From IMG/VR virus record IMGVR_UViG_2648501235_000001, positions 1-33,554 of that record: a stretch of 33,554 bases of DNA; one strand, given 5' to 3'. The position numbers and the translations under genes are program-made. The stretch comes from a virus (Duplodnaviria; Heunggongvirae; Uroviricota; Caudoviricetes). Of this stretch, positions 2,092-10,902 are shown one piece after another. The notes below the pieces were generated by a model. The model saw nothing but the letters and a program-made list of their open reading frames with translations, made no database searches and had not been told where the DNA came from. Each line of letters begins with the position of its first letter. The stretch's first letter is position 1.

Positions 2092-2790
2092 TTACGGCAC
2101 TGCGTTAATCAGATTACAAATACCTCTTTTGGCAGGGTCTGAATTCAACTTCTGAAAATTGGCGTTCAACATAGCCGTGTGTAAGTGATTCTCAACCTCA
2201 AAGAATAAGTCGATTTTGCCCTCTTTGGCTGCCTGTTTCTTCCAAATATTCACTTGGTCATCAGCAATACGACTGGCGCAAGTGAACAAGAACGAACTGC
2301 CTCTAGGAATGGATGTCGTGCTGTAATACTCACCATCTACTTCTACATATTTAGCTCGGAATGACTCTAAGGTTAGCTCATTGCCGTTCTTGACCGACTT
2401 AGCTTCTGCCTTACTTGTTTCTTCCTGCTCTTCAGAATGTTTCTGCGCCGACGTGGGTATGTCATTGGCCGCTGTTACGCTGACTGAACTCCCCAAACCT
2501 TTGAGGCCATTAATTTGGATAAGATAAGCCAGCTCCAGAGCCTTATTATCAGTGAGTTTTCCACGCATATTTACCCACTGACGTTGAACCATTTTTAGGG
2601 TGTCTGCGTTCTCTGGGTTTCCTTTGAGGGCACTAGAATAGGCAGAGCTAAGCTGTTCGTCTAATTTTGACAGACGTTCGTTATCGCAGATTTTATGTTC
2701 GATTGCTGTCGAAGCCTTTTGGCAGTCAAAGCTGGCTGCAAATGCACCCGGCGATGCCACTAACAATGATGCCAGTAGGATATTTTTCAT
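2092..2790 (-). CDS. Secreted protein with signal peptide and N-terminal LprI/DUF1311-like (lysozyme-inhibitor-type) motif; cargo (moron) gene
   Basis: ATG at 2790 with GGAG 7 nt upstream. N-terminus MKNILLASLLVASPGAFAASF (signal peptide, AFA-A cleavage) then FDCQKASTAIEHKICDNERLSKLDEQLSSAY, which matches the DUF1311/LprI signature from memory. The six-frame ORF extends to 2817 but lacks an SD there. Confidence 0.6.
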   Translation of the reverse strand: MKNILLASLLVASPGAFAASFDCQKASTAIEHKICDNERLSKLDEQLSSAYSSALKGNPENADTLKMVQRQWVNMRGKLTDNKALELAYLIQINGLKGLGSSVSVTAANDIPTSAQKHSEEQEETSKAEAKSVKNGNELTLESFRAKYVEVDGEYYSTTSIPRGSSFLFTCASRIADDQVNIWKKQAAKEGKIDLFFEVENHLHTAMLNANFQKLNSDPAKRGICNLINAVP

Positions 2791-2920
2791 ATTCACTCCA
2801 TAAATACAAAAGCGCATTACTATAGCACTTAACCGATCGCTTATCTCGCCCGTTCGTCATTCTTATCTAACCAGAACATGCGACTGCCACAGCACATGTC
2901 GAGGATTGCTGCATGTCCAG

Positions 2921-3529: not shown

Positions 3530-3826
3530 TCAGTCATTACTGATAGCGCCATAGCGTGAGCGGTAATTACGCAGGCGCGGGTCGATATATTCAGGGACGT
3601 GGGTATATGTGGCTTTGCGGAATGGTCGGATTGATGTCTGGTAAATTCGCTCGCGTTCTTCTTTCTCTGCAAGCCATATACAGTGGCGAAATTCCTTTTC
3701 CTCTTTCGTTTCCTGCGGTAGAGACATTATTCGATCGTAGTTTTTTCTGAATTTATCCAGCACCTCCGATACGGAATTGCCGGAACAGCGGCGCGGGTCA
3801 TCCGCACCATACAGAGGCGCTGGCAT
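3530..3826 (-). CDS. Hypothetical early-left protein (98 aa)
   Basis: ATG at 3826 with AGGAG 6 nt upstream, 13 nt downstream of the ssb stop; co-oriented in the pL operon. Confidence 0.5.
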
Positions 3827-3839
3827 GATTTTCTCCTGA

Positions 3840-4346
3840 TTAAATTGCGTGAATAGCGTGACGAGGGAAGGGGAGAGTTACTGGTGCAAAGGGTATATCG
3901 TCGTCAAAATCCATCGGAGGTTCGTTGTGTTGTGCTGGTGATGATTGCTGCTGTGGCTTCTGTGATTGCCTGCTGGCTGCTTGTTGTTTGCTGTCGCCAA
4001 TGCCGCCAAGCATTTGCATCACGCCATTAATTCCGACATGAACCTCGGTTGTGTAACGGTCTTGCCCTGACTGGTCTTTCCACTTTCTGGTTCTCAGCAT
4101 TCCCTCGAAATAAATCTGATCACCTTTTTTCACATACTGCCCCACGACCTCAGCCAGTTTCCCGGATACAGCAACACGATGCCATTCAGTCAATTCCTTT
4201 TGCTCGCCAGTATTTTTATCTCGCCATTGTTCTGACGTGGCTATTGTCAGATTAGCGAACGCTGTTCCTGATGGTGAGTATCGAACTTCCGGGTCTTGTC
4301 CTACCCGACCAAGGATAATCACCTTATTTACGCCTCTGCTTGCCAT
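3840..4346 (-). CDS. ssb: Single-stranded DNA-binding protein (SSB), with 15-residue extension after the conserved DDDIPF tail
   Basis: [23 protein letters not shown]...TEWHRVAV...QDRYTTEV...[11 protein letters not shown] closely matches E. coli SSB (OB fold and acidic tip). Translation continues [15 protein letters not shown] before TAA at 3840-3842. Confidence 0.9.
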
Positions 4347-5054
4347 TTATGCCGCCTGTTTTAGTTCGTTAACTCTGATGTTCATTACCTGAACGCATTT
4401 AGCCTGCGCCTCCTCGTTGCCAGCCATTAATTGCCAGTCACGCTGATAACGCTCGATGAGTTTTTTCTTGTCAGTTTCTGTTGATGCATAATCGCTGAAG
4501 TCTTTCAGGATTTGTTCGCAGTCAACCGATGGAGATTTCTGGTTGGTATTTTCTGGTGATGGTTTGTTATCTGATGCTGGGATTGCCCATCCCGGCAGCG
4601 ATGGAGGGAGCCAGTAAAATCCTGTTCCATCCTTCAGTTTTGCCCTGTGCCACCCCTGCTTTTTATCGAGAGATGTTTGTGCGAAACCTTCCTCAAGGTT
4701 ATACAGATACCGACCGATTCCCCACTGAACGGCAGCGCGCTTCATTGCGCCGGAACGACCACCTTTGACGGCTTCTACCTGCGTGTTTTCAGCAGCATCC
4801 CATTTGGTTACCCATTCGGAATCAATCCTGATTGATATGCCGCATTCAACGCCTCCGTTGTTGGGAATATCGCGGTATTCATTGCGCCATCCTGCTTTGC
4901 CGCAAACATCGTCCAGGCGTTTCATGATTGCCCTGTTCGTGACATAAGCCAGCACCATAGCCCACACCTTGCCATCGCGTGTTTTACCGCTTTGCTGTAT
5001 TCTCCATTCTATATCTTCAGGGCTGAATGGCTCATCGAATTTATTCAAATCCAT
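4347..5054 (-). CDS. Putative phage single-strand annealing protein (Rad52/Erf-like class, tentative) forming a module with ssb
   Basis: 235 aa, ATG at 5054 with GAGGTG SD; its stop abuts the ssb start (4346/4347), a typical SSAP-SSB arrangement. Family inferred from position and general resemblance only; it is clearly not RecT or lambda Bet by sequence. Confidence 0.55.
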   Translation of the reverse strand: MDLNKFDEPFSPEDIEWRIQQSGKTRDGKVWAMVLAYVTNRAIMKRLDDVCGKAGWRNEYRDIPNNGGVECGISIRIDSEWVTKWDAAENTQVEAVKGGRSGAMKRAAVQWGIGRYLYNLEEGFAQTSLDKKQGWHRAKLKDGTGFYWLPPSLPGWAIPASDNKPSPENTNQKSPSVDCEQILKDFSDYASTETDKKKLIERYQRDWQLMAGNEEAQAKCVQVMNIRVNELKQAA

Positions 5055-6703: not shown

Positions 6704-7012
6704 TTACCTCGCTGTCAGTTGTTTTGATTTCCGGTAGCCTGCCGCGTAAAGAGCTACGTTTGGCAGGCAAATACTTCCACTGCATTCATCTGCCTTCTTG
6801 CAGCGAAGGCTTCCGAGTGATATTGCTTTTTCAGAAAGGCTTAACCGCTTTCTCGGGTCTTCCTGAACAGGTTCCTCACTGTCTGTGCCGAAGATCGAAT
6901 CGATGATGTTGCAGATGGAATCACGCTCGATGGCCAGCTTTCTGCGCCGCTCATGACGGCGAGTTTTGGCATTTCCTGCAAATGTTGATTTTCCGTACAC
7001 GATTACCGTCAT
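6704..7012 (-). CDS. N: Antitermination protein N, P22 gene-24 type
   Basis: ATG at 7012 with GAGGA SD. Contains the arginine-rich motif GNAKTRRHERRRKLAIER, which I recall as the P22 N boxB-binding peptide. The six-frame ORF start at 7096 lies 5' of the nutL boxA/boxB (7131-7164), so the shorter product is the real one. Confidence 0.8.
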   Translation of the reverse strand: MTVIVYGKSTFAGNAKTRRHERRRKLAIERDSICNIIDSIFGTDSEEPVQEDPRKRLSLSEKAISLGSLRCKKADECSGSICLPNVALYAAGYRKSKQLTAR

Positions 7013-7130
7013 GATGTTTTCCTCATGTGAAATGGCTTTGGTGGTGATGCGCCAGATGCTGATCTTCTGGTTGCTGTCGTTACTGCTGCAATTCACATCA
7101 CCCCAAACCCATCTCGTTTGGTATCTGTTC

Positions 7131-7454: not shown

Positions 7455-8354
7455 TTATTTGATTATTTCTTTTATAAAGACTTCTTTCGGTTGGTATTTT
7501 TTATCTGATGATTTGAGCTGGTACGTTATTGTTATATCAGCACGTACAGCAAATTTACCTGCAAAATCTGATGGGTTTACGTTGGGGCCAAGAACCATAT
7601 TTACTCTTCGATCTATTAATCCAGGGATAACAGCGGCCCAACCTTTCTCTGGATTGTCGAGGTCTAATGCACGGATTTCAACATCAACATCAAAATGATC
7701 CTGAGTATATGACTCTGGTGTGAAGACAACTTCAGTTGGGGCTTTTTTAATGGTTTCAGCGGGAATGGTCACTGTACCACCCCCTGTACCTATGACCATC
7801 GTAGATCCTTCGTCTGCCCTAGCTGGGGCAAGCGTCTTAATGGAACTTTTGGCAAGAGTCTTCTTATTGGTTACCGTGCTTTCTATGATTGCTTGAAGAC
7901 GGTCAGGTGAAATATTAGCCTCACCGGCACCAATATTGATGATTGTATTGTTATTTGCTTCAAAGTGGGAGGTGTTGCTTGGAGCCATAGCCTTAGTTGC
8001 TAGAACTAAGCCATATCCAACCAGACCAATAACAACAGCACCAACGAGAGCGTTTCTCATTTTCCCATTTCCGATCTTTGCATGAGCGCCAGCAAGAAAC
8101 TTGTCCATTTCTTCTTGGCTACCAAAGAGGAGTTTAATAACAATATCTTCATAAAGGCTTCCTGCTTCTAATCGCGCAACATGCACCGATATATCAAGGA
8201 TATTAGCCCCTGTCAGTTCCTGCAAAACACCTTCTGATTGTTTTGCGATGGCCTCCCACCCTTGAAGGGAGGTAATCACATCTTTGATGCTTACAGGTTC
8301 TTTAGTTGAATAATATATGTTTTCGGTAAAGGTTAAAGATAATTCTTGGGACAT
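7455..8354 (-). CDS. Uncharacterised single-pass membrane protein (299 aa) in the rexAB slot; putative lysogen-expressed exclusion/defence moron
   Basis: ATG at 8354 with GAGGG SD. Same strand as cI, 129 bp downstream of its stop, and followed by its own terminator. One central hydrophobic segment ALVGAVVIGLVGYGLVLATKAM. About 37% GC in a sampled 60-nt stretch versus about 55% in a late-region stretch. No family recognised. Confidence 0.6.
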   Translation of the reverse strand: MSQELSLTFTENIYYSTKEPVSIKDVITSLQGWEAIAKQSEGVLQELTGANILDISVHVARLEAGSLYEDIVIKLLFGSQEEMDKFLAGAHAKIGNGKMRNALVGAVVIGLVGYGLVLATKAMAPSNTSHFEANNNTIINIGAGEANISPDRLQAIIESTVTNKKTLAKSSIKTLAPARADEGSTMVIGTGGGTVTIPAETIKKAPTEVVFTPESYTQDHFDVDVEIRALDLDNPEKGWAAVIPGLIDRRVNMVLGPNVNPSDFAGKFAVRADITITYQLKSSDKKYQPKEVFIKEIIK

Positions 8355-8483: not shown

Positions 8484-9191
8484 TCATGAACTTTTCAGCC
8501 ATTCCCTGGCCTCGATGTCATCTAGGTGGCGAGATTGCTTCAGAATACCAGCTACATACTCCACCTTTGCTACTTGATGATAAGGCAACGTTATTGGCCT
8601 GTGGTCTTGGTTGATGCTTGTAAATTGGTATTCTCCGTCTCTGTCATAGCCAAGAACCTTGATCATGTTGTGCCCTTCAATGGTTCTGACAAACACCTCA
8701 TCACCTGGGAATACTTTGGTGTTAGGCTCAATGAGTACATATTCTCCTGATTTTATTCTGGGCCACATGCTGTCTCCTTTTACACGAAGACCAAAGGCAT
8801 CTGGATCATCGCTATAAATCTTGAGCCACCCATCGCGCTCTTCGGTCATCTCGATGGCACCATCAACACCAAGAATTGCCTCACCAACCACGCGCACTAA
8901 CCCTTTTTTTAATTTGCCAACAATTGAAAAAGTATCTTCATCATTCGCTCCATTTAACGAAGTGCCGTGCTGAAGCCAAACAACATCAACGTTTAGAAAT
9001 TTCGCAAGCGCATTCATTTTTTCCTGGCGTGGTAAAGACTCAGCATTAAACCATTTGCTAACGCCTTTGGACGAAAGAGAAAGGGCACGGGCTATGGCCA
9101 TTCCCCTACCATGTTCATCAAGACCAGCTTCTTTACAGGCTTGCGCTAGCCGCTGGGCGAATTCTTTGCGCACTTTTTCATTCTGAACCAT
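8484..9191 (-). CDS. cI: CI-type prophage repressor (HTH N-domain + LexA/S24-like autocleavage C-domain)
   Basis: 235 aa, ATG at 9191 with no SD, consistent with a leaderless pRM transcript as in lambda. C-domain has GDSMWP (Ser) and a downstream Lys (MIKVL) typical of S24 peptidases. Not lambda, 434 or P22 c2 by sequence. Confidence 0.85.
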   Translation of the reverse strand: MVQNEKVRKEFAQRLAQACKEAGLDEHGRGMAIARALSLSSKGVSKWFNAESLPRQEKMNALAKFLNVDVVWLQHGTSLNGANDEDTFSIVGKLKKGLVRVVGEAILGVDGAIEMTEERDGWLKIYSDDPDAFGLRVKGDSMWPRIKSGEYVLIEPNTKVFPGDEVFVRTIEGHNMIKVLGYDRDGEYQFTSINQDHRPITLPYHQVAKVEYVAGILKQSRHLDDIEAREWLKSS

Positions 9192-9603: not shown

Positions 9604-9900
9604 ATGGAACAAACAAATTACAGCAAACTATCACAGCGCGACGTTGATCGCGCAGAAACAGATTTACTTATCAACCTGTCAGCGATTACCCAGCGCGGTT
9701 TGGCAAAGATGATTGGCTGTCATGAATCGAAGATAAGCAGAACGGACTGGAGGTTTATTGCTTCGGTCTTGTGTGCTTTCGGAATGGCATCAGACATCAG
9801 TCCGATTAGCAGGGCTTTTAAGTATGCGCTTGATGGAATCACAAAGAAAAAATCCCCGGCCGCCACCGAGGATTTTAAGCAAATTGATATGCAATTCTGA
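9604..9900 (+). CDS. cII: Transcriptional activator CII
   Basis: 98 aa; C-terminal ...ITKKKSPAATEDFKQIDMQF parallels lambda CII ...LTNKKRPAATERSEQIQMEF; central HTH-like region. Confidence 0.8.
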   Translation: MEQTNYSKLSQRDVDRAETDLLINLSAITQRGLAKMIGCHESKISRTDWRFIASVLCAFGMASDISPISRAFKYALDGITKKKSPAATEDFKQIDMQF

Positions 9901-9932
9901 GGGAATTACTGGATCAATCCACAGGAGTCATT

Positions 9933-10094
9933 ATGACAAAACGTCGTAAGAAATACCAGGAAAAAGAAGAGATTCGACACCCTGATTCACCTGAGGGATT
10001 AGTGGTAGCCGCAGCAAATAACAGGGCGTTCGCAGAGCGCCTTGTTGGTGTTTACAGACTAGCCAAAGCAGGAGTGAAACATGGGCGTCGTTAA
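9933..10094 (+). CDS. Small basic hypothetical protein (53 aa) between cII and O
   Basis: ATG at 9933 with AGGAG 5 nt upstream; [53 protein letters not shown]; its 3' end overlaps the O start. Below the 60-aa cutoff of the supplied ORF track. Confidence 0.3.
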   Translation: MTKRRKKYQEKEEIRHPDSPEGLVVAAANNRAFAERLVGVYRLAKAGVKHGRR

Positions 10095-10902
10095 GTTAGC
10101 TGATTACAGGCCTCAACTGGAGGTCGTGGAGCATCGCGTGGCAGATACCGAAGATGGTTTCATGCGCGTTGCTAACGAGATTACCGACAGTCTGCTGATG
10201 GCTGATTTAACCGTCCGGCAGTTGAAGGTGATGCTCGCTATCATGCGCAAGACATACGGATTCAATAAGCCGATGGATCGACTCACAAACACGCAGATAG
10301 CAGCCATGACAGGTATTCATCACACTCATGTTTGCGCTGCCAAGCGCCAGCTTATTGAGCGTAAATTCCTCATTGCTGATGGCGTGAAAATCGGAGTGAA
10401 CAAGGTGGTTTCGCAGTGGATTAGCCAGGACAGCTTAACATTAGCTAAAACAGCTAATAAAACATTAGCCGAGTCGGCTAATGGGTATAAGCCAAGTCAG
10501 CTAAACACAAAAGACAATATACAAAAGACAATAAATACAAATACCCCCTTACCCCCTAACGGGGGCGGCGATGGGCAGGTTAAACCTGAACGTCGCAAGG
10601 CAGAACGAATCGACTACGAATCCTTCCTGAACGCCTACAACACCGAAGTCGGTGACAGACTGCCACACGCTGTTGCGGTCAACGAGAAACGCAAACGCCG
10701 CCTGAAGAAAATCATCCCGCAACTGAAAACGCCAAACGTGGACGGTTTCAGAGCGTATGTCAGGGCGTTTGTGCATCAGGCCAAGCCGTTTTACTTCGGA
10801 GACAACGACACGGGCTGGACGGCAGATTTTGATTACCTGCTGAGGGAAGATTCGTTAACGGGGGTACGGGAAGGGAAGTTTGCAGACAGGGGGATTGCAT
10901 GA
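10081..10902 (+). CDS. O: Replication initiator, lambda O family
   Basis: N-domain ...[34 protein letters not shown]... parallels lambda O ...ADLTKRQFKVLLAILRKTYGWNKPMDRITDSQL...; AGGAG SD; origin-like iterons embedded mid-gene. Confidence 0.85.
10421..10545. repeat. ori: Putative replication origin: about 4 palindromic iterons followed by an AT-rich tract, inside the O gene
   Basis: TTAGCTAAAACAGCTAA (10441-10457) and TTAGCCGAGTCGGCTAA (10465-10481), with degenerate copies at about 10421-10438 and 10489-10506, then an A/T-rich run (10507-10545). Same layout as lambda ori within O. Confidence 0.55.

What the first reader, a model, noticed from the sequence alone, without database searches (positions are those of the whole stretch)
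3840..3890. Prophage SSB with a 15-residue extension beyond the conserved C-terminal DDDIPF tip
Seen in sequence: the SSB reading frame (minus strand) encodes ...[11 protein letters not shown] and then continues in frame with [15 protein letters not shown] before TAA at 3840-3842. Established knowledge: in E. coli SSB the last residues (DDDIPF, with a free terminal Phe carboxylate) are the docking site for partner proteins such as RecQ, ExoI and PriA. Inference: the extension would mask the canonical SSB-Ct interaction. It could be a stop-codon loss that changes partner specificity (for example favouring the adjacent phage SSAP), or a sequencing or assembly error.
Basis: partly seen in the sequence, partly recalled or inferred. 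Interest (0 to 1): 0.42.

Follow-up and report, generated by a model that had tools for sequence, protein, structure and literature searches.

The report
Conserved tail capping a prophage SSB
The 15 extra residues after the DDDIPF tip of this prophage single-stranded-DNA-binding protein are neither an error nor a lost stop codon: they are a conserved, disordered tail found on many mobile-element SSBs, its function has not been tested, and a mobile HNH endonuclease gene repeatedly inserts exactly at its start.

Summary
Window 3840-4346 (-) encodes a 168-aa SSB ending ...[11 protein letters not shown] + [15 protein letters not shown] + TAA.

It is not a sequencing error or a recent stop-codon loss:
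- The same protein is in phages HK75 and mEp235.
- The tip-tail junction is in 297 of 5426 complete E. coli genomes.
- 112 of the 120 closest SSB clusters carry a homologous tail.
- About half of an unbiased sample of phage SSBs with DDDIPF-type tips are extended, with consensus A-P-[ILV]-G-L-Q-Y-P... and a hydrophobic end.
- The extended genes lie in prophages, plasmids and ICE-like elements across Gammaproteobacteria.

The tail is under protein-level constraint and is predicted to be disordered.

In Sf6-like phages the SSB stops right after IPF. The next gene, an HNH endonuclease, ends with the same 14-15 residues, and 46 nt are identical. HNH relatives elsewhere lack the tail. An HNH+/HNH- pair is identical except for 7 substitutions and one codon in the 27 nt next to the junction. 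The window therefore holds the empty-site allele of a likely homing site.

Function is inferred only. Most likely the tail caps the SSB-Ct, taking away the free Phe carboxylate, and so uncouples or redirects partner binding. What remains is an unstudied variant of SSB.

The parts
3840..4346 (-). ssb gene: 168-aa bacterial-type SSB of the prophage recombination (Rec) module
   Evidence: ORF. Pfam PF00436 E=1.6e-36. The AF2 model shows an OB fold at residues 8-114 with block-mean pLDDT 73-89. 100% identical to HK75 and mEp235 SSB.
4035..4331 (-). OB-fold ssDNA-binding domain (residues 6-104)
   Evidence: Pfam match 6-104. AF2 strands E8-15 through E109-114.
3921..4004 (-). Q/P/S-rich intrinsically disordered linker (about residues 115-142)
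   Evidence: AF2 pLDDT about 30. Highest column entropy in the family alignment, 1.17 bits.
3888..3920 (-). Canonical SSB-Ct tip [11 protein letters not shown], here internal (residues 143-153)
   Evidence: Read directly from the sequence. It is the most constrained segment: entropy 0.16 and pN/pS 0.047.
3843..3887 (-). 15-residue conserved tail [15 protein letters not shown] (residues 154-168), the feature in the finding
   Evidence: Sequence. Present in 112 of the 120 closest SSB clusters. P155 and L158 are invariant, and V156 T157 P159 F160 P161 R162 H163 I165 I168 are >=90% conserved. Entropy is 0.48 against 1.17 for the linker. Synonymous variants exist. Predicted disordered. No RNA structure.
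3887..3888 (-). Unoccupied insertion site of the HNH endonuclease cassette (between the Phe codon TTT and the Ala codon GCA)
   Evidence: In Sf6-like loci a stop codon, RBS and HNH ORF lie exactly here, and the HNH ORF reads into the tail. L251 and L237 differ by presence or absence of the cassette in otherwise near-identical flanks.
3840..3842 (-). ssb stop codon TAA, 13 nt upstream of the abc2 start codon
3827..3839 (-). ssb-abc2 spacer with the abc2 ribosome-binding site (AGGAG, 3833-3837). This is also the unoccupied site of the DnaQ-like exonuclease cassette found in mEp235 and epsilon34.
   Evidence: Alignment. Architectures.
3530..3826 (-). abc2, the P22-type anti-RecBCD protein, downstream neighbour
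   Evidence: Pfam PF11043 E=3.2e-61.
4347..5054 (-). Rad52/Rad22-family single-strand annealing protein, upstream neighbour. Its stop codon abuts the ssb start codon.
   Evidence: Pfam PF04098 E=7.2e-26. ORF list.

Best explanation
SHOWN. The extension is a genuine, translated, conserved C-terminal module of a large subfamily of SSBs encoded by mobile elements. It is intrinsically disordered and has a conserved core, A-P-[VIL]-[TG]-L-[PQ]-[FY]-P, followed by a short hydrophobic end. In Enterobacteriaceae the end reads x-H-x-[IV]-[HY]-x-[IL]. The module sits directly after the DDDIPF tip. In this lambdoid prophage it belongs to an HK75-type Rec module: Rad52-like SSAP, then SSB, then Abc2.

The boundary between tip and tail is the insertion point of a free-standing HNH (beta-beta-alpha-Me) endonuclease gene. 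Where that gene is present, it supplies a stop codon immediately after Phe, so the SSB gets a canonical free -IPF end. It also carries a diverged 27-nt version of the tip-coding sequence, and its own reading frame runs on into the old tail. The window carries the uninterrupted, 'empty site' allele.

INFERRED, function. Docking sites on SSB partners, as seen in the RecO complex, hold the last Phe in a hydrophobic pocket and anchor its free carboxyl end with a basic residue. The tail therefore most likely acts as a cap. It would prevent or weaken canonical docking of host SSB-interacting proteins (ExoI, RecJ, RecQ, PriA, chi, RecO) to phage-SSB-coated ssDNA, and it may offer a different linear motif to another partner. 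In a module that also neutralises RecBCD, this would shield recombination intermediates from host nucleases and helicases that SSB recruits.

INFERRED, mobility. The HNH gene is a homing endonuclease whose target is the highly conserved tip/tail-coding sequence of the HNH-less allele.
For: Reality and conservation:
- Identical SSB in HK75 and mEp235, and an identical tail in epsilon34.
- The junction is in 297 of 5426 E. coli genomes.
- 112 of the 120 closest clusters are extended, in Escherichia, Salmonella, Klebsiella, Citrobacter, Enterobacter, Kluyvera, Pluralibacter and Phytobacter.
- Tail entropy is 0.48, against 0.33 for the OB fold and 1.17 for the linker.
- pN/pS is 0.445 for the tail against 0.36 for the OB fold.
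- Synonymous tail variants exist.

Breadth:
- Homologous extensions occur in Proteus, Xenorhabdus, Mixta, Tatumella, Gilliamella, Pasteurellaceae, Vibrio, Oceanisphaera, Pseudoalteromonas and Glaciecola, and shorter ones in Pseudomonas.
- 38 of 78 phage SSBs are extended in a sample not selected on the tail.
- 15 of 83 of the nearest 50%-identity cluster representatives with a recognisable tip are extended by at least 4 residues.

Module character:
- The same tip and tail are attached to an SSB that is only 38% identical overall, with most of that identity in the shared C-terminus.
- The tail is disordered in the AF2 models of both SSB and HNH.

The tail is native to SSB, not to HNH:
- HNH homologues in other contexts end at ...KPIY(PE..) plus a few variable residues.
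- The PHROG endonuclease profile ends at residue 143 of 159.

Insertion polymorphism:
- Four architectures are seen, with and without HNH and with and without Exo.
- There are three different HNH 5' junctions, all with the stop codon directly after IPF.
- HNH+ alleles carry PMNFDD(S)DIPF or NFDDEIPF, where HNH- alleles on the same SSB backbones carry [10 protein letters not shown].
- L251 against L237: about 380 nt of ssb are identical, four scattered differences follow, and then 7 substitutions plus a 3-nt indel fall in the last 27 nt. Downstream flanks are identical except for 3 nt in 300.
- Unrelated HNH genes also lie directly after ssb in ES18, L274, L278 and L282.
- Chimeric remnants exist.

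HNH identity:
- H112, H113, H130, H134, C100 and C103 are invariant and C126 is at least 90% conserved.

Capping logic:
- A cognate phage SSB tail is needed to stimulate the phage annealase Sak4 (PMC5928155).
Against: - No experiment or complex model links the tail to any partner. The AF2 monomer is uninformative.
- The DDDIPF tip is even more strongly conserved than the OB fold in extended SSBs. A simple 'inactivate the tip' model does not predict this. The tip must still do something while internal, or the tail must be removable.
- HNH+ phages such as Sf6 live with an uncapped SSB, so the cap is not essential.
- The tail shows no consistent co-occurrence with any one element-encoded protein.
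- Within E. coli and Salmonella phages the tail DNA is nearly invariant even where ssb is 10% diverged. This could reflect recent exchange at a mosaic joint rather than selection on the peptide.
- Homing is inferred from population patterns only. Ordinary recombination between mosaic modules could give a similar presence/absence pattern.
Confidence: 0.6

Rival explanations
1. The tail is a degradation or turnover tag. A conserved adaptor-like core (AP-x-G-L-Q-Y-P) plus a non-polar C-terminus (HAIHAI, ALLLAM, LLLQII, HLAGA) would mark mobile-element SSBs for ClpXP, ClpAP or Lon. This would limit how long a foreign SSB competes with the host SSB.
For: The last residue of the 60 distinct extensions is I in 29, A in 13 and M in 8. 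The last five residues are mostly non-polar. The tail is disordered and therefore accessible. Non-polar C-termini and ssrA-like or MuA-like ends are established ClpX/ClpA signals (my own knowledge: Parsell 1990, Flynn 2003). No element-encoded partner is shared between contexts, so a host factor is implied.
Against: The best-conserved positions are the proximal ones (A1, P2, G/T4, L5, Y/F7, P8), not the extreme C-terminus. No match to a defined degron was tested. A degron would not need to abut the tip so exactly.
Confidence: 0.15
2. The tail is autoregulatory. Its aromatic and proline-rich core would bind the SSB's own OB fold, or that of a neighbouring tetramer, tuning ssDNA-binding mode or cooperativity or holding the tip until ssDNA is bound.
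For: The only protein common to all contexts is the SSB itself. The E. coli SSB tip is known to contact its own OB fold weakly, and the HK620 SSB tail seems accessible only on ssDNA (PMC5928155). The tail is always fused directly to the tip.
Against: AF2 does not dock the tail on the OB fold (pLDDT about 30), although only a monomer was modelled. The same tail is attached to an SSB only 38% identical overall and to an HNH protein, which argues against a co-adapted intramolecular surface.
Confidence: 0.12
3. The tail peptide has no function. The 45 nt would be a conserved mosaic joint (a lambdoid 'boundary sequence') and translational-coupling spacer that happens to be read as protein by whichever gene lies upstream.
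For: 46 nt are identical between SSB tails and HNH tails, and between epsilon34 and HK75, whose ssb genes are otherwise about 10% diverged. 70 of 124 loci share one tail haplotype. Different cassettes join exactly at its two ends. The ssb stop lies 13 nt from the abc2 start.
Against: Homologous tails occur in distant genera with different downstream genes and diverged DNA, yet keep the peptide pattern. Substitutions are conservative (I/V, F/Y, H/Y, A/S/T). Tail entropy is close to that of the OB fold and far below that of the linker. No RNA structure is predicted (z=+1.24) and there is no Rfam hit.
Confidence: 0.08
4. The tail originated in the HNH endonuclease. A deletion of the HNH gene fused ssb in frame to the last 14-15 HNH codons, so the extended SSB would be a scar of endonuclease loss.
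For: Sf6 gp26 ends with the same residues. Deletion chimeras such as SSB-OB::HNH-C and HNH-N::Exo do exist.
Against: HNH relatives outside this locus lack the tail and end at KPIY(PE)xx. The endonuclease profile stops before the tail. Extended SSBs are far more widespread and diverse than tail-bearing HNHs, and they occur in taxa where no such HNH was seen. The tail is conserved in the SSB context.
Confidence: 0.04
5. Sequencing or assembly error, or a private stop-codon loss in this genome.
For: None found.
Against: Identical sequence occurs in independently sequenced phages and in hundreds of complete genomes.
Confidence: 0.01

Closest known systems
E. coli chromosomal SSB (homotetrameric OB-fold SSB with a C-terminal DDDIPF hub motif)
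   Same: OB-fold domain (PF00436), a disordered Q/P-rich linker, and the sequence [11 protein letters not shown].
   Different: The motif is not at the C-terminus. 15 conserved residues follow it, so the free Phe carboxylate that partners anchor is absent. All curated SSB profiles end at the Phe.
Sf6 gp27 (SSB) and gp26 (HNH endonuclease) pair; ES18 gp48 and gp47
   Same: Same Rec-module position (SSAP, SSB..., Abc2), the same SSB family, and the same 14-15 tail residues with 46 identical nucleotides.
   Different: In Sf6 the SSB stops after IPF and the tail is the C-terminus of the inserted HNH protein. In ES18 a different HNH (T7 gp7.7-like) follows ssb and the tail is absent. The Sf6 GenBank note already records '14 contiguous amino acids identical to E. 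coli SSB'.
Free-standing homing endonuclease genes of phages (T4 seg/mob type, HNH and GIY-YIG)
   Same: A small endonuclease ORF is present or absent at a fixed site in otherwise identical genomes. It lies next to or inside a highly conserved gene, with sequence changes clustered at the junction. Degenerate copies and several lineages occur at one site.
   Different: Cleavage and biased inheritance are untested. The ORF is joined in frame to the 3' end of the host gene, so it truncates the host protein and inherits its tail.
HK620 SSB (HkaK) and T7 gp2.5: phage SSBs whose C-terminal tails recruit cognate phage proteins
   Same: A phage-encoded SSB in or near a recombination module. Its C-terminal tail is the partner-docking element (PMC5928155).
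   Different: Those tails end with the acidic and aromatic motif itself (NDYPPF; ...DDF). Here the motif is followed by a further conserved segment, and no partner is known.
HK75-type lambdoid Rec modules (Genome Res 2025, PMC12315714)
   Same: The window's SSAP-SSB-Abc2 module is this class. Those authors call the SSB 'SSB-1'.
   Different: In the passages I retrieved, that survey states these SSBs 'have not been studied experimentally' and does not mention the extension.

Membership tests
Bacterial-type SSB (Pfam PF00436 / TIGR00621) | N-terminal OB-fold ssDNA-binding domain | tested here: met
   PF00436 E=1.6e-36 over residues 6-104. TIGR00621 scores 166.9 bits against a cut-off of 53.95. 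The AF2 model shows an OB fold.
Bacterial-type SSB (Pfam PF00436 / TIGR00621) | Intrinsically disordered linker followed by an acidic tip D-D-D-I-P-F | tested here: met
   Sequence. Residues 115-168 have pLDDT below 50.
Bacterial-type SSB (Pfam PF00436 / TIGR00621) | The tip is the extreme C-terminus, with a free carboxylate on the last Phe | tested here: not met
   15 residues follow Phe153. The same holds in 112 of the 120 closest clusters.
Bacterial-type SSB (Pfam PF00436 / TIGR00621) | Homotetramer that binds ssDNA | not testable with these tools
   Only a monomer model was possible.
Free-standing HNH homing endonuclease (applies to the cassette absent from this window) | HNH / beta-beta-alpha-Me catalytic core with Zn-binding cysteines | tested here: inconclusive
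Free-standing HNH homing endonuclease (applies to the cassette absent from this window) | Presence/absence polymorphism at one precise site in near-identical flanks | tested here: met
   L251 against L237. Four architectures.
Free-standing HNH homing endonuclease (applies to the cassette absent from this window) | The target sequence is altered in the endonuclease-bearing allele, with flanking markers co-converted | tested here: met
   7 substitutions plus a codon insertion fall in the 27 nt next to the junction, after about 380 identical nucleotides and four scattered differences. The variant tip segregates with HNH across SSB backbones.
Free-standing HNH homing endonuclease (applies to the cassette absent from this window) | Site-specific cleavage of the endonuclease-less allele and super-Mendelian inheritance | not testable with these tools
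   This needs enzyme assays and mixed infections.
Lambdoid mosaic boundary (linker) sequence | A short nucleotide-conserved segment at the joint between exchangeable modules, conserved irrespective of coding | tested here: inconclusive
   The nucleotide-identical 46 nt joins different modules. Across genera, however, the peptide is conserved rather than the DNA.
C-terminal degron (ssrA-like or MuA-like ClpX signals) | A non-polar or basic-then-non-polar extreme C-terminus recognised by an AAA+ protease | not tested
   The composition is compatible. No recognition assay or motif model was available.

The most novel reading that the evidence does not exclude
Many mobile elements of Gammaproteobacteria encode 'capped' SSBs. 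A conserved two-part linear motif fused directly to DDDIPF would turn the universal SSB hub motif into an internal one. ssDNA coated by the element's SSB would then be invisible to the host SSB interactome of nucleases, helicases and restart proteins, or would be routed to a single unidentified host factor. In lambdoid phages a homing HNH gene would switch the SSB between capped and uncapped states. That would be a general strategy by which mobile elements privatise ssDNA intermediates, and it has not been described.
Probability: 0.3. Interest if true: 0.72.

Novelty: new variant of a known kind. Interest (0 to 1): 0.5.

Why it matters
The SSB C-terminal tip is treated as a universal docking hub whose function depends on being the free C-terminus. 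A large, conserved class of phage, plasmid and ICE SSBs keeps the tip but buries it behind a conserved tail. Either some partners read the motif internally, or mobile elements deliberately disconnect their SSB from host repair and nuclease pathways. The question can be tested directly with peptides, a one-codon stop mutant and mass spectrometry.

It also has practical weight. Recombineering systems are now chosen and engineered around SSAP/SSB-Ct compatibility (PMC13490951, seen; PMC5928155). The cognate SSB of HK75-type Rad52-like annealases is of the capped kind.

The tip/tail boundary also gives a clean natural example of a homing-type endonuclease gene that truncates its host protein and takes over its C-terminus.

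Tried and rejected
- Sequencing error or private mutation: rejected.
- Recoding at the Phe codon: inspection of CCC TTT GCA shows no X XXY YYZ slippery heptamer in frame, and a +1 shift would give ...IPLHQ*, not a canonical end. Not pursued.
- RNA element in the tail-coding region: MFE -11.2 kcal/mol against a shuffle mean of -14.5, z=+1.24. No Rfam family anywhere in the window.
- Known domain for the tail: none in Pfam or NCBIfam.
- Tail docking onto the OB fold: the AF2 monomer leaves it disordered.
- Tail on other proteins: a regex scan of all six frames of every fetched locus found the motif only after an SSB tip (148), after the HNH YPDE (32), or in two truncated ORFs.
- A specific element-encoded partner: neighbours of distant extended SSBs are heterogeneous (ERF, Sak4, RecT, RdgC, Dam, AcaB, integrases). 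Within enterobacterial phages the tail always co-occurs with abc2, but abc2 also occurs without it (P22-like SPN9CC and ES18).
- Beta-clamp-binding motif (QL[SD]LF / QLxLxL): PVTLPF resembles it only loosely, lacks the Gln, and the Pseudomonas-type tails do not fit. Dropped, and based on my own knowledge only.
- Literature: no paper describing the extension was found. The library lacks most subscription journals, including the 2004 Sf6 genome paper.
- The 50%-identity representative search contained many frameshifted or truncated representatives: 66 of 150 had no recognisable tip. Its 15-of-83 figure is therefore rough.
- The pN/pS estimates use ungapped codon alignments and uncorrected proportions, with synonymous sites near saturation. 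They are indicative only.
Full report
OBSERVATION. The minus-strand ORF 3840-4346 encodes a 168-residue protein. Residues 6-104 match the Pfam SSB family (PF00436, E=1.6e-36) and are modelled as an OB fold. After a Q/P-rich linker the protein reads [11 protein letters not shown] (nt 3888-3920). It continues in frame with [15 protein letters not shown] (nt 3843-3887) before TAA at 3840-3842. Every curated SSB profile (TIGR00621 and the NCBIfam subfamilies) stops aligning at residue 153, the Phe.

CONTEXT. The gene lies in the early-left operon of a lambdoid prophage. The window has a lambda-type integrase at 197-1270, N at 6704-7096 and a cI-like repressor at 8484-9191, and it is similar to lambda and HK97. 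[quoted passage not shown] A recent survey calls this the 'HK75-type' Rec module and says these SSBs have not been studied experimentally (PMC12315714).

NOT AN ERROR, NOT A PRIVATE MUTATION. The same 168-aa protein is encoded by phages HK75 and mEp235. Salmonella phage epsilon34 encodes a 92%-identical one with an identical tail. A 90-nt probe across the tip/tail junction finds matches of at least 80% coverage in 297 of 5426 complete E. coli genomes.

Of the 120 closest 90%-identity protein clusters, 112 have a homologous 15-residue tail. They come from Escherichia, Salmonella, Klebsiella, Citrobacter, Enterobacter, Kluyvera, Pluralibacter and Phytobacter. Examples are [45 protein letters not shown] and SPVGLQYGKHRVYAL. 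In their alignment P155 and L158 are invariant, and nine further tail positions are at least 90% conserved. Mean column entropy of the tail is 0.48 bits, close to the OB fold (0.33) and far below the linker (1.17); the tip scores 0.16. Tail DNA shows synonymous variation. A rough pN/pS of 0.445 compares with 0.36 for the OB fold.

BREADTH. A scan of one genome per species found SSBs with DDDIPF followed by clearly homologous extensions in many other taxa:
- Proteus, APIGLPYPHIAIHII
- Xenorhabdus, APIGKQYPNHAIYVI
- Mixta, Tatumella and Gilliamella
- Pasteurellaceae, APIHHGYSKHSITVI
- Vibrio, Oceanisphaera, Pseudoalteromonas and Glaciecola, APIGLQYPALLLAM
- Pseudomonas, with shorter or different extensions (APLHHLAGA, APISKLLLQII)

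That scan used a pattern that required the first tail residue. A phage-contig sample selected only on FDDD[IV]PF or an OB-fold motif gave 38 extended and 40 canonical SSBs out of 78. Across 60 distinct extensions the consensus is A-P-[ILV]-G-L-Q-Y-P, with a mostly hydrophobic end in I, A or M. Among the 150 nearest 50%-identity cluster representatives, 15 of the 83 with a recognisable tip carry at least 4 extra residues.

The distant extended genes lie in mobile elements next to very different proteins: ERF, Sak4-like AAA_24, RecT, RdgC, Dam, AcaB, Bro-N and integrases. The most diverged enterobacterial tail is again in a Rad52-SSB-...-Abc2 module.

THE HNH CONNECTION. In Sf6 the SSB ends at ...DSDIPF*. 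The next gene, gp26, ends ...[22 protein letters not shown]. Its last 46 nt and the following abc2 ribosome-binding site are identical to the window. The Sf6 GenBank note had already remarked on '14 contiguous amino acids' shared with an E. coli SSB.

A degenerate-pattern scan of viral contigs found the tail at the end of SSBs or at the end of such HNH proteins. A stricter classification counted 90 full-length extended SSBs and 26 HNH proteins among the 124 loci. The HNH proteins fall into at least three lineages.

Four gene orders occur:
- SSAP>SSB-tail>Abc2, 46 loci. This is the window's order.
- SSAP>SSB-tail>Exo>Abc2, 31 loci.
- SSAP>SSB>HNH-tail>Abc2, 14 loci.
- SSAP>SSB>HNH-tail>Exo>Abc2, 7 loci.

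In all 25 HNH+ loci with enough flank, the ssb stop codon follows IPF immediately. There are three different junction sequences: TAGGAGCTGAATATG, TAGGAGTAAGCATG and TAATCATTGGGAGAAAATATG.

DIRECTION. Among the 77 proteins related to Sf6 gp26, the tail occurs only in the closest relatives of Sf6 gp26, a few related lineages and SSB-HNH chimeras. Most others end at ...WHK.NKPIY(PE) plus a few variable residues. The PHROG endonuclease profile ends at residue 143 of 159. The tail is disordered in the otherwise confident HNH model (pLDDT 92.6 overall, below 50 for residues 152-159). Extended SSBs, by contrast, are phylogenetically far wider. The tail therefore belongs to SSB, and the HNH reading frame runs into it. 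The window is the uninterrupted allele, not a stop-codon-loss derivative.

HOMING SIGNATURE. HNH+ alleles carry a variant tip, PMNFDDSDIPF or PMNFDDEIPF. HNH- alleles of the same SSB backbones carry [10 protein letters not shown]. The pair L251 (HNH+) and L237 (HNH-) is the clearest case. Their ssb genes are identical over the first ~380 nt and differ at four scattered positions after that. They then differ by 7 substitutions and one inserted codon in the last 27 nt before the junction. Downstream, the tail and 300 nt of exo differ at 3 positions.

This looks like a cassette of about 510 bp, made of a diverged target half-site, a stop codon and the HNH ORF, dropped into an otherwise identical genome. 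It is the classical picture of a free-standing homing endonuclease gene with co-conversion or target immunity. Further support:
- Unrelated HNH genes sit directly after ssb in ES18 (T7 gp7.7-like, no tail) and in L274, L278 and L282.
- Chimeric remnants exist: SSB-OB fused to HNH-C (P0131, P0134), and HNH-N fused to Exo (P0144, P0173, P0180, P0183).
- HNH-less alleles that keep the variant tip exist (P0003, L012).

WHAT THE TAIL DOES (INFERENCE). The tail is disordered in both proteins. It has no RNA-level signal and no profile match. In the loci I fetched it is found only after an SSB tip or in the HNH frame. The same tip and tail are attached to an SSB only 38% identical overall, most of it in the shared C-terminus. 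It therefore behaves as a portable short linear motif.

Partners of E. coli SSB bind the last residues of the tip. In RecO an arginine anchors the terminal carboxyl, and the R132A mutant is among the strongest binding losses (PMC3152348). From my own knowledge, the same holds for ExoI, RecQ, PriA and chi (Lu and Keck 2008; Shereda et al. 2008).

My preferred reading is that the tail caps the tip. Phage-SSB-coated ssDNA would then not recruit host nucleases and helicases in the usual way, possibly with re-targeting to another factor. This fits a module that also disarms RecBCD.

Against a pure 'switch-off' model, the tip is the most conserved part of the extended proteins. It must still act, either while internal or after removal of the tail. 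Because the neighbouring proteins differ between elements, the partner is more likely a host protein or the SSB itself than the adjacent SSAP. A tail-less SSB of the same OB type also occurs next to a Rad52-like SSAP and next to a Sak4-like protein.

The alternatives I keep open are a degron, an autoregulatory contact, and a functionless mosaic joint. The last is favoured by the near-invariant tail DNA within E. coli and Salmonella phages but disfavoured by peptide-level conservation across genera.

VERDICT. I rate the three claims separately:
- Descriptive claim (real, conserved, widespread, native to SSB): confidence about 0.9.
- HNH cassette as a homing element targeting the tip/tail junction: about 0.65.
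- Capping or re-targeting function: about 0.35.

I found no paper that describes the extension, though the searchable library is incomplete. I classify it as a new variant of a known kind, of moderate interest. It is ordinary in the sense of being common and not an anomaly of this genome. It is worth a look because it contradicts the textbook expectation that DDDIPF must be terminal, and because it is cheap to test.

Noticed in passing
window 3827-3839; L002:2170-2718; L003:2170-2718: A 549-bp DnaQ-like 3'-5' exonuclease gene (Pfam Rv2179c-like, E=1.3e-73) is present or absent exactly between the ssb stop codon and the abc2 ribosome-binding site in otherwise collinear modules. It is a second cassette polymorphism, independent of the HNH one. 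The window lacks it.
   Followed up: partly
P0131, P0134; P0144, P0173, P0180, P0183: Annotated proteins that are chimeras: SSB OB fold fused to the C-terminal half of the HNH with its tail, and the HNH N-terminus fused to the exonuclease. They look like deletion remnants of the cassettes, that is, endonuclease decay.
   Followed up: partly
L126:2164-2685 (ES18 gp47); L274, L278, L282 downstream of ssb: Unrelated HNH endonuclease families (T7 gp7.7-like and others) also sit immediately downstream of canonical-ended ssb genes in other phages. The 3' end of ssb may be a general hotspot for endonuclease genes.
   Followed up: partly
L012:~9750-10210: An SSB only 38% identical overall to the window's SSB, most of that in the C-terminus, carries the same tip and tail (PMNFDDEIPF+[15 protein letters not shown]) in the same Rad52-SSAP context. 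This points to domain-level mosaicism of the C-terminal module.
   Followed up: partly
L161, L169, L175, L207 (uncultured Gammaproteobacteria): These SSBs have a 24-residue, strongly hydrophobic extension after DDDIPF (for example AWGALLPIGALLAALAPHVARLLA) that looks like a membrane or amphipathic helix. It is a different class of post-tip extension.
   Followed up: no
L157 (Salmonella enterica s1), L154, L158: A further extension class, DDDIPF+SGPGYGAERRIIHAM and VGRGYGTGKSAIYAL. In L157 the 178-aa SSB lies next to a YhgA-like transposase.
   Followed up: no
window 2092-2817 (-): A 241-aa ORF with a signal-peptide-like N-terminus and a weak LprI (lysozyme inhibitor) domain (E=2.3e-5) lies between the xis/int end and the Rec module. 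It may be a moron.
   Followed up: no
window 7455-8354 (-): A 299-aa ORF with no Pfam hit lies just downstream of the cI-like repressor gene (8484-9191), on the same strand. This is the position where RexA-like exclusion genes sit in other lambdoid phages (PMC12315714).
   Followed up: no
window 4347-4520 (-), C-terminal ~56 aa of the SSAP: According to the epsilon34 genome paper (PMC2629481), the C-terminal 56 residues of this Rad52-like annealase are 86% identical to those of P22 Erf, although the N-terminal domains differ. This is a swapped partner-interaction domain that might be relevant to SSB or Abc2 contacts.
   Followed up: no
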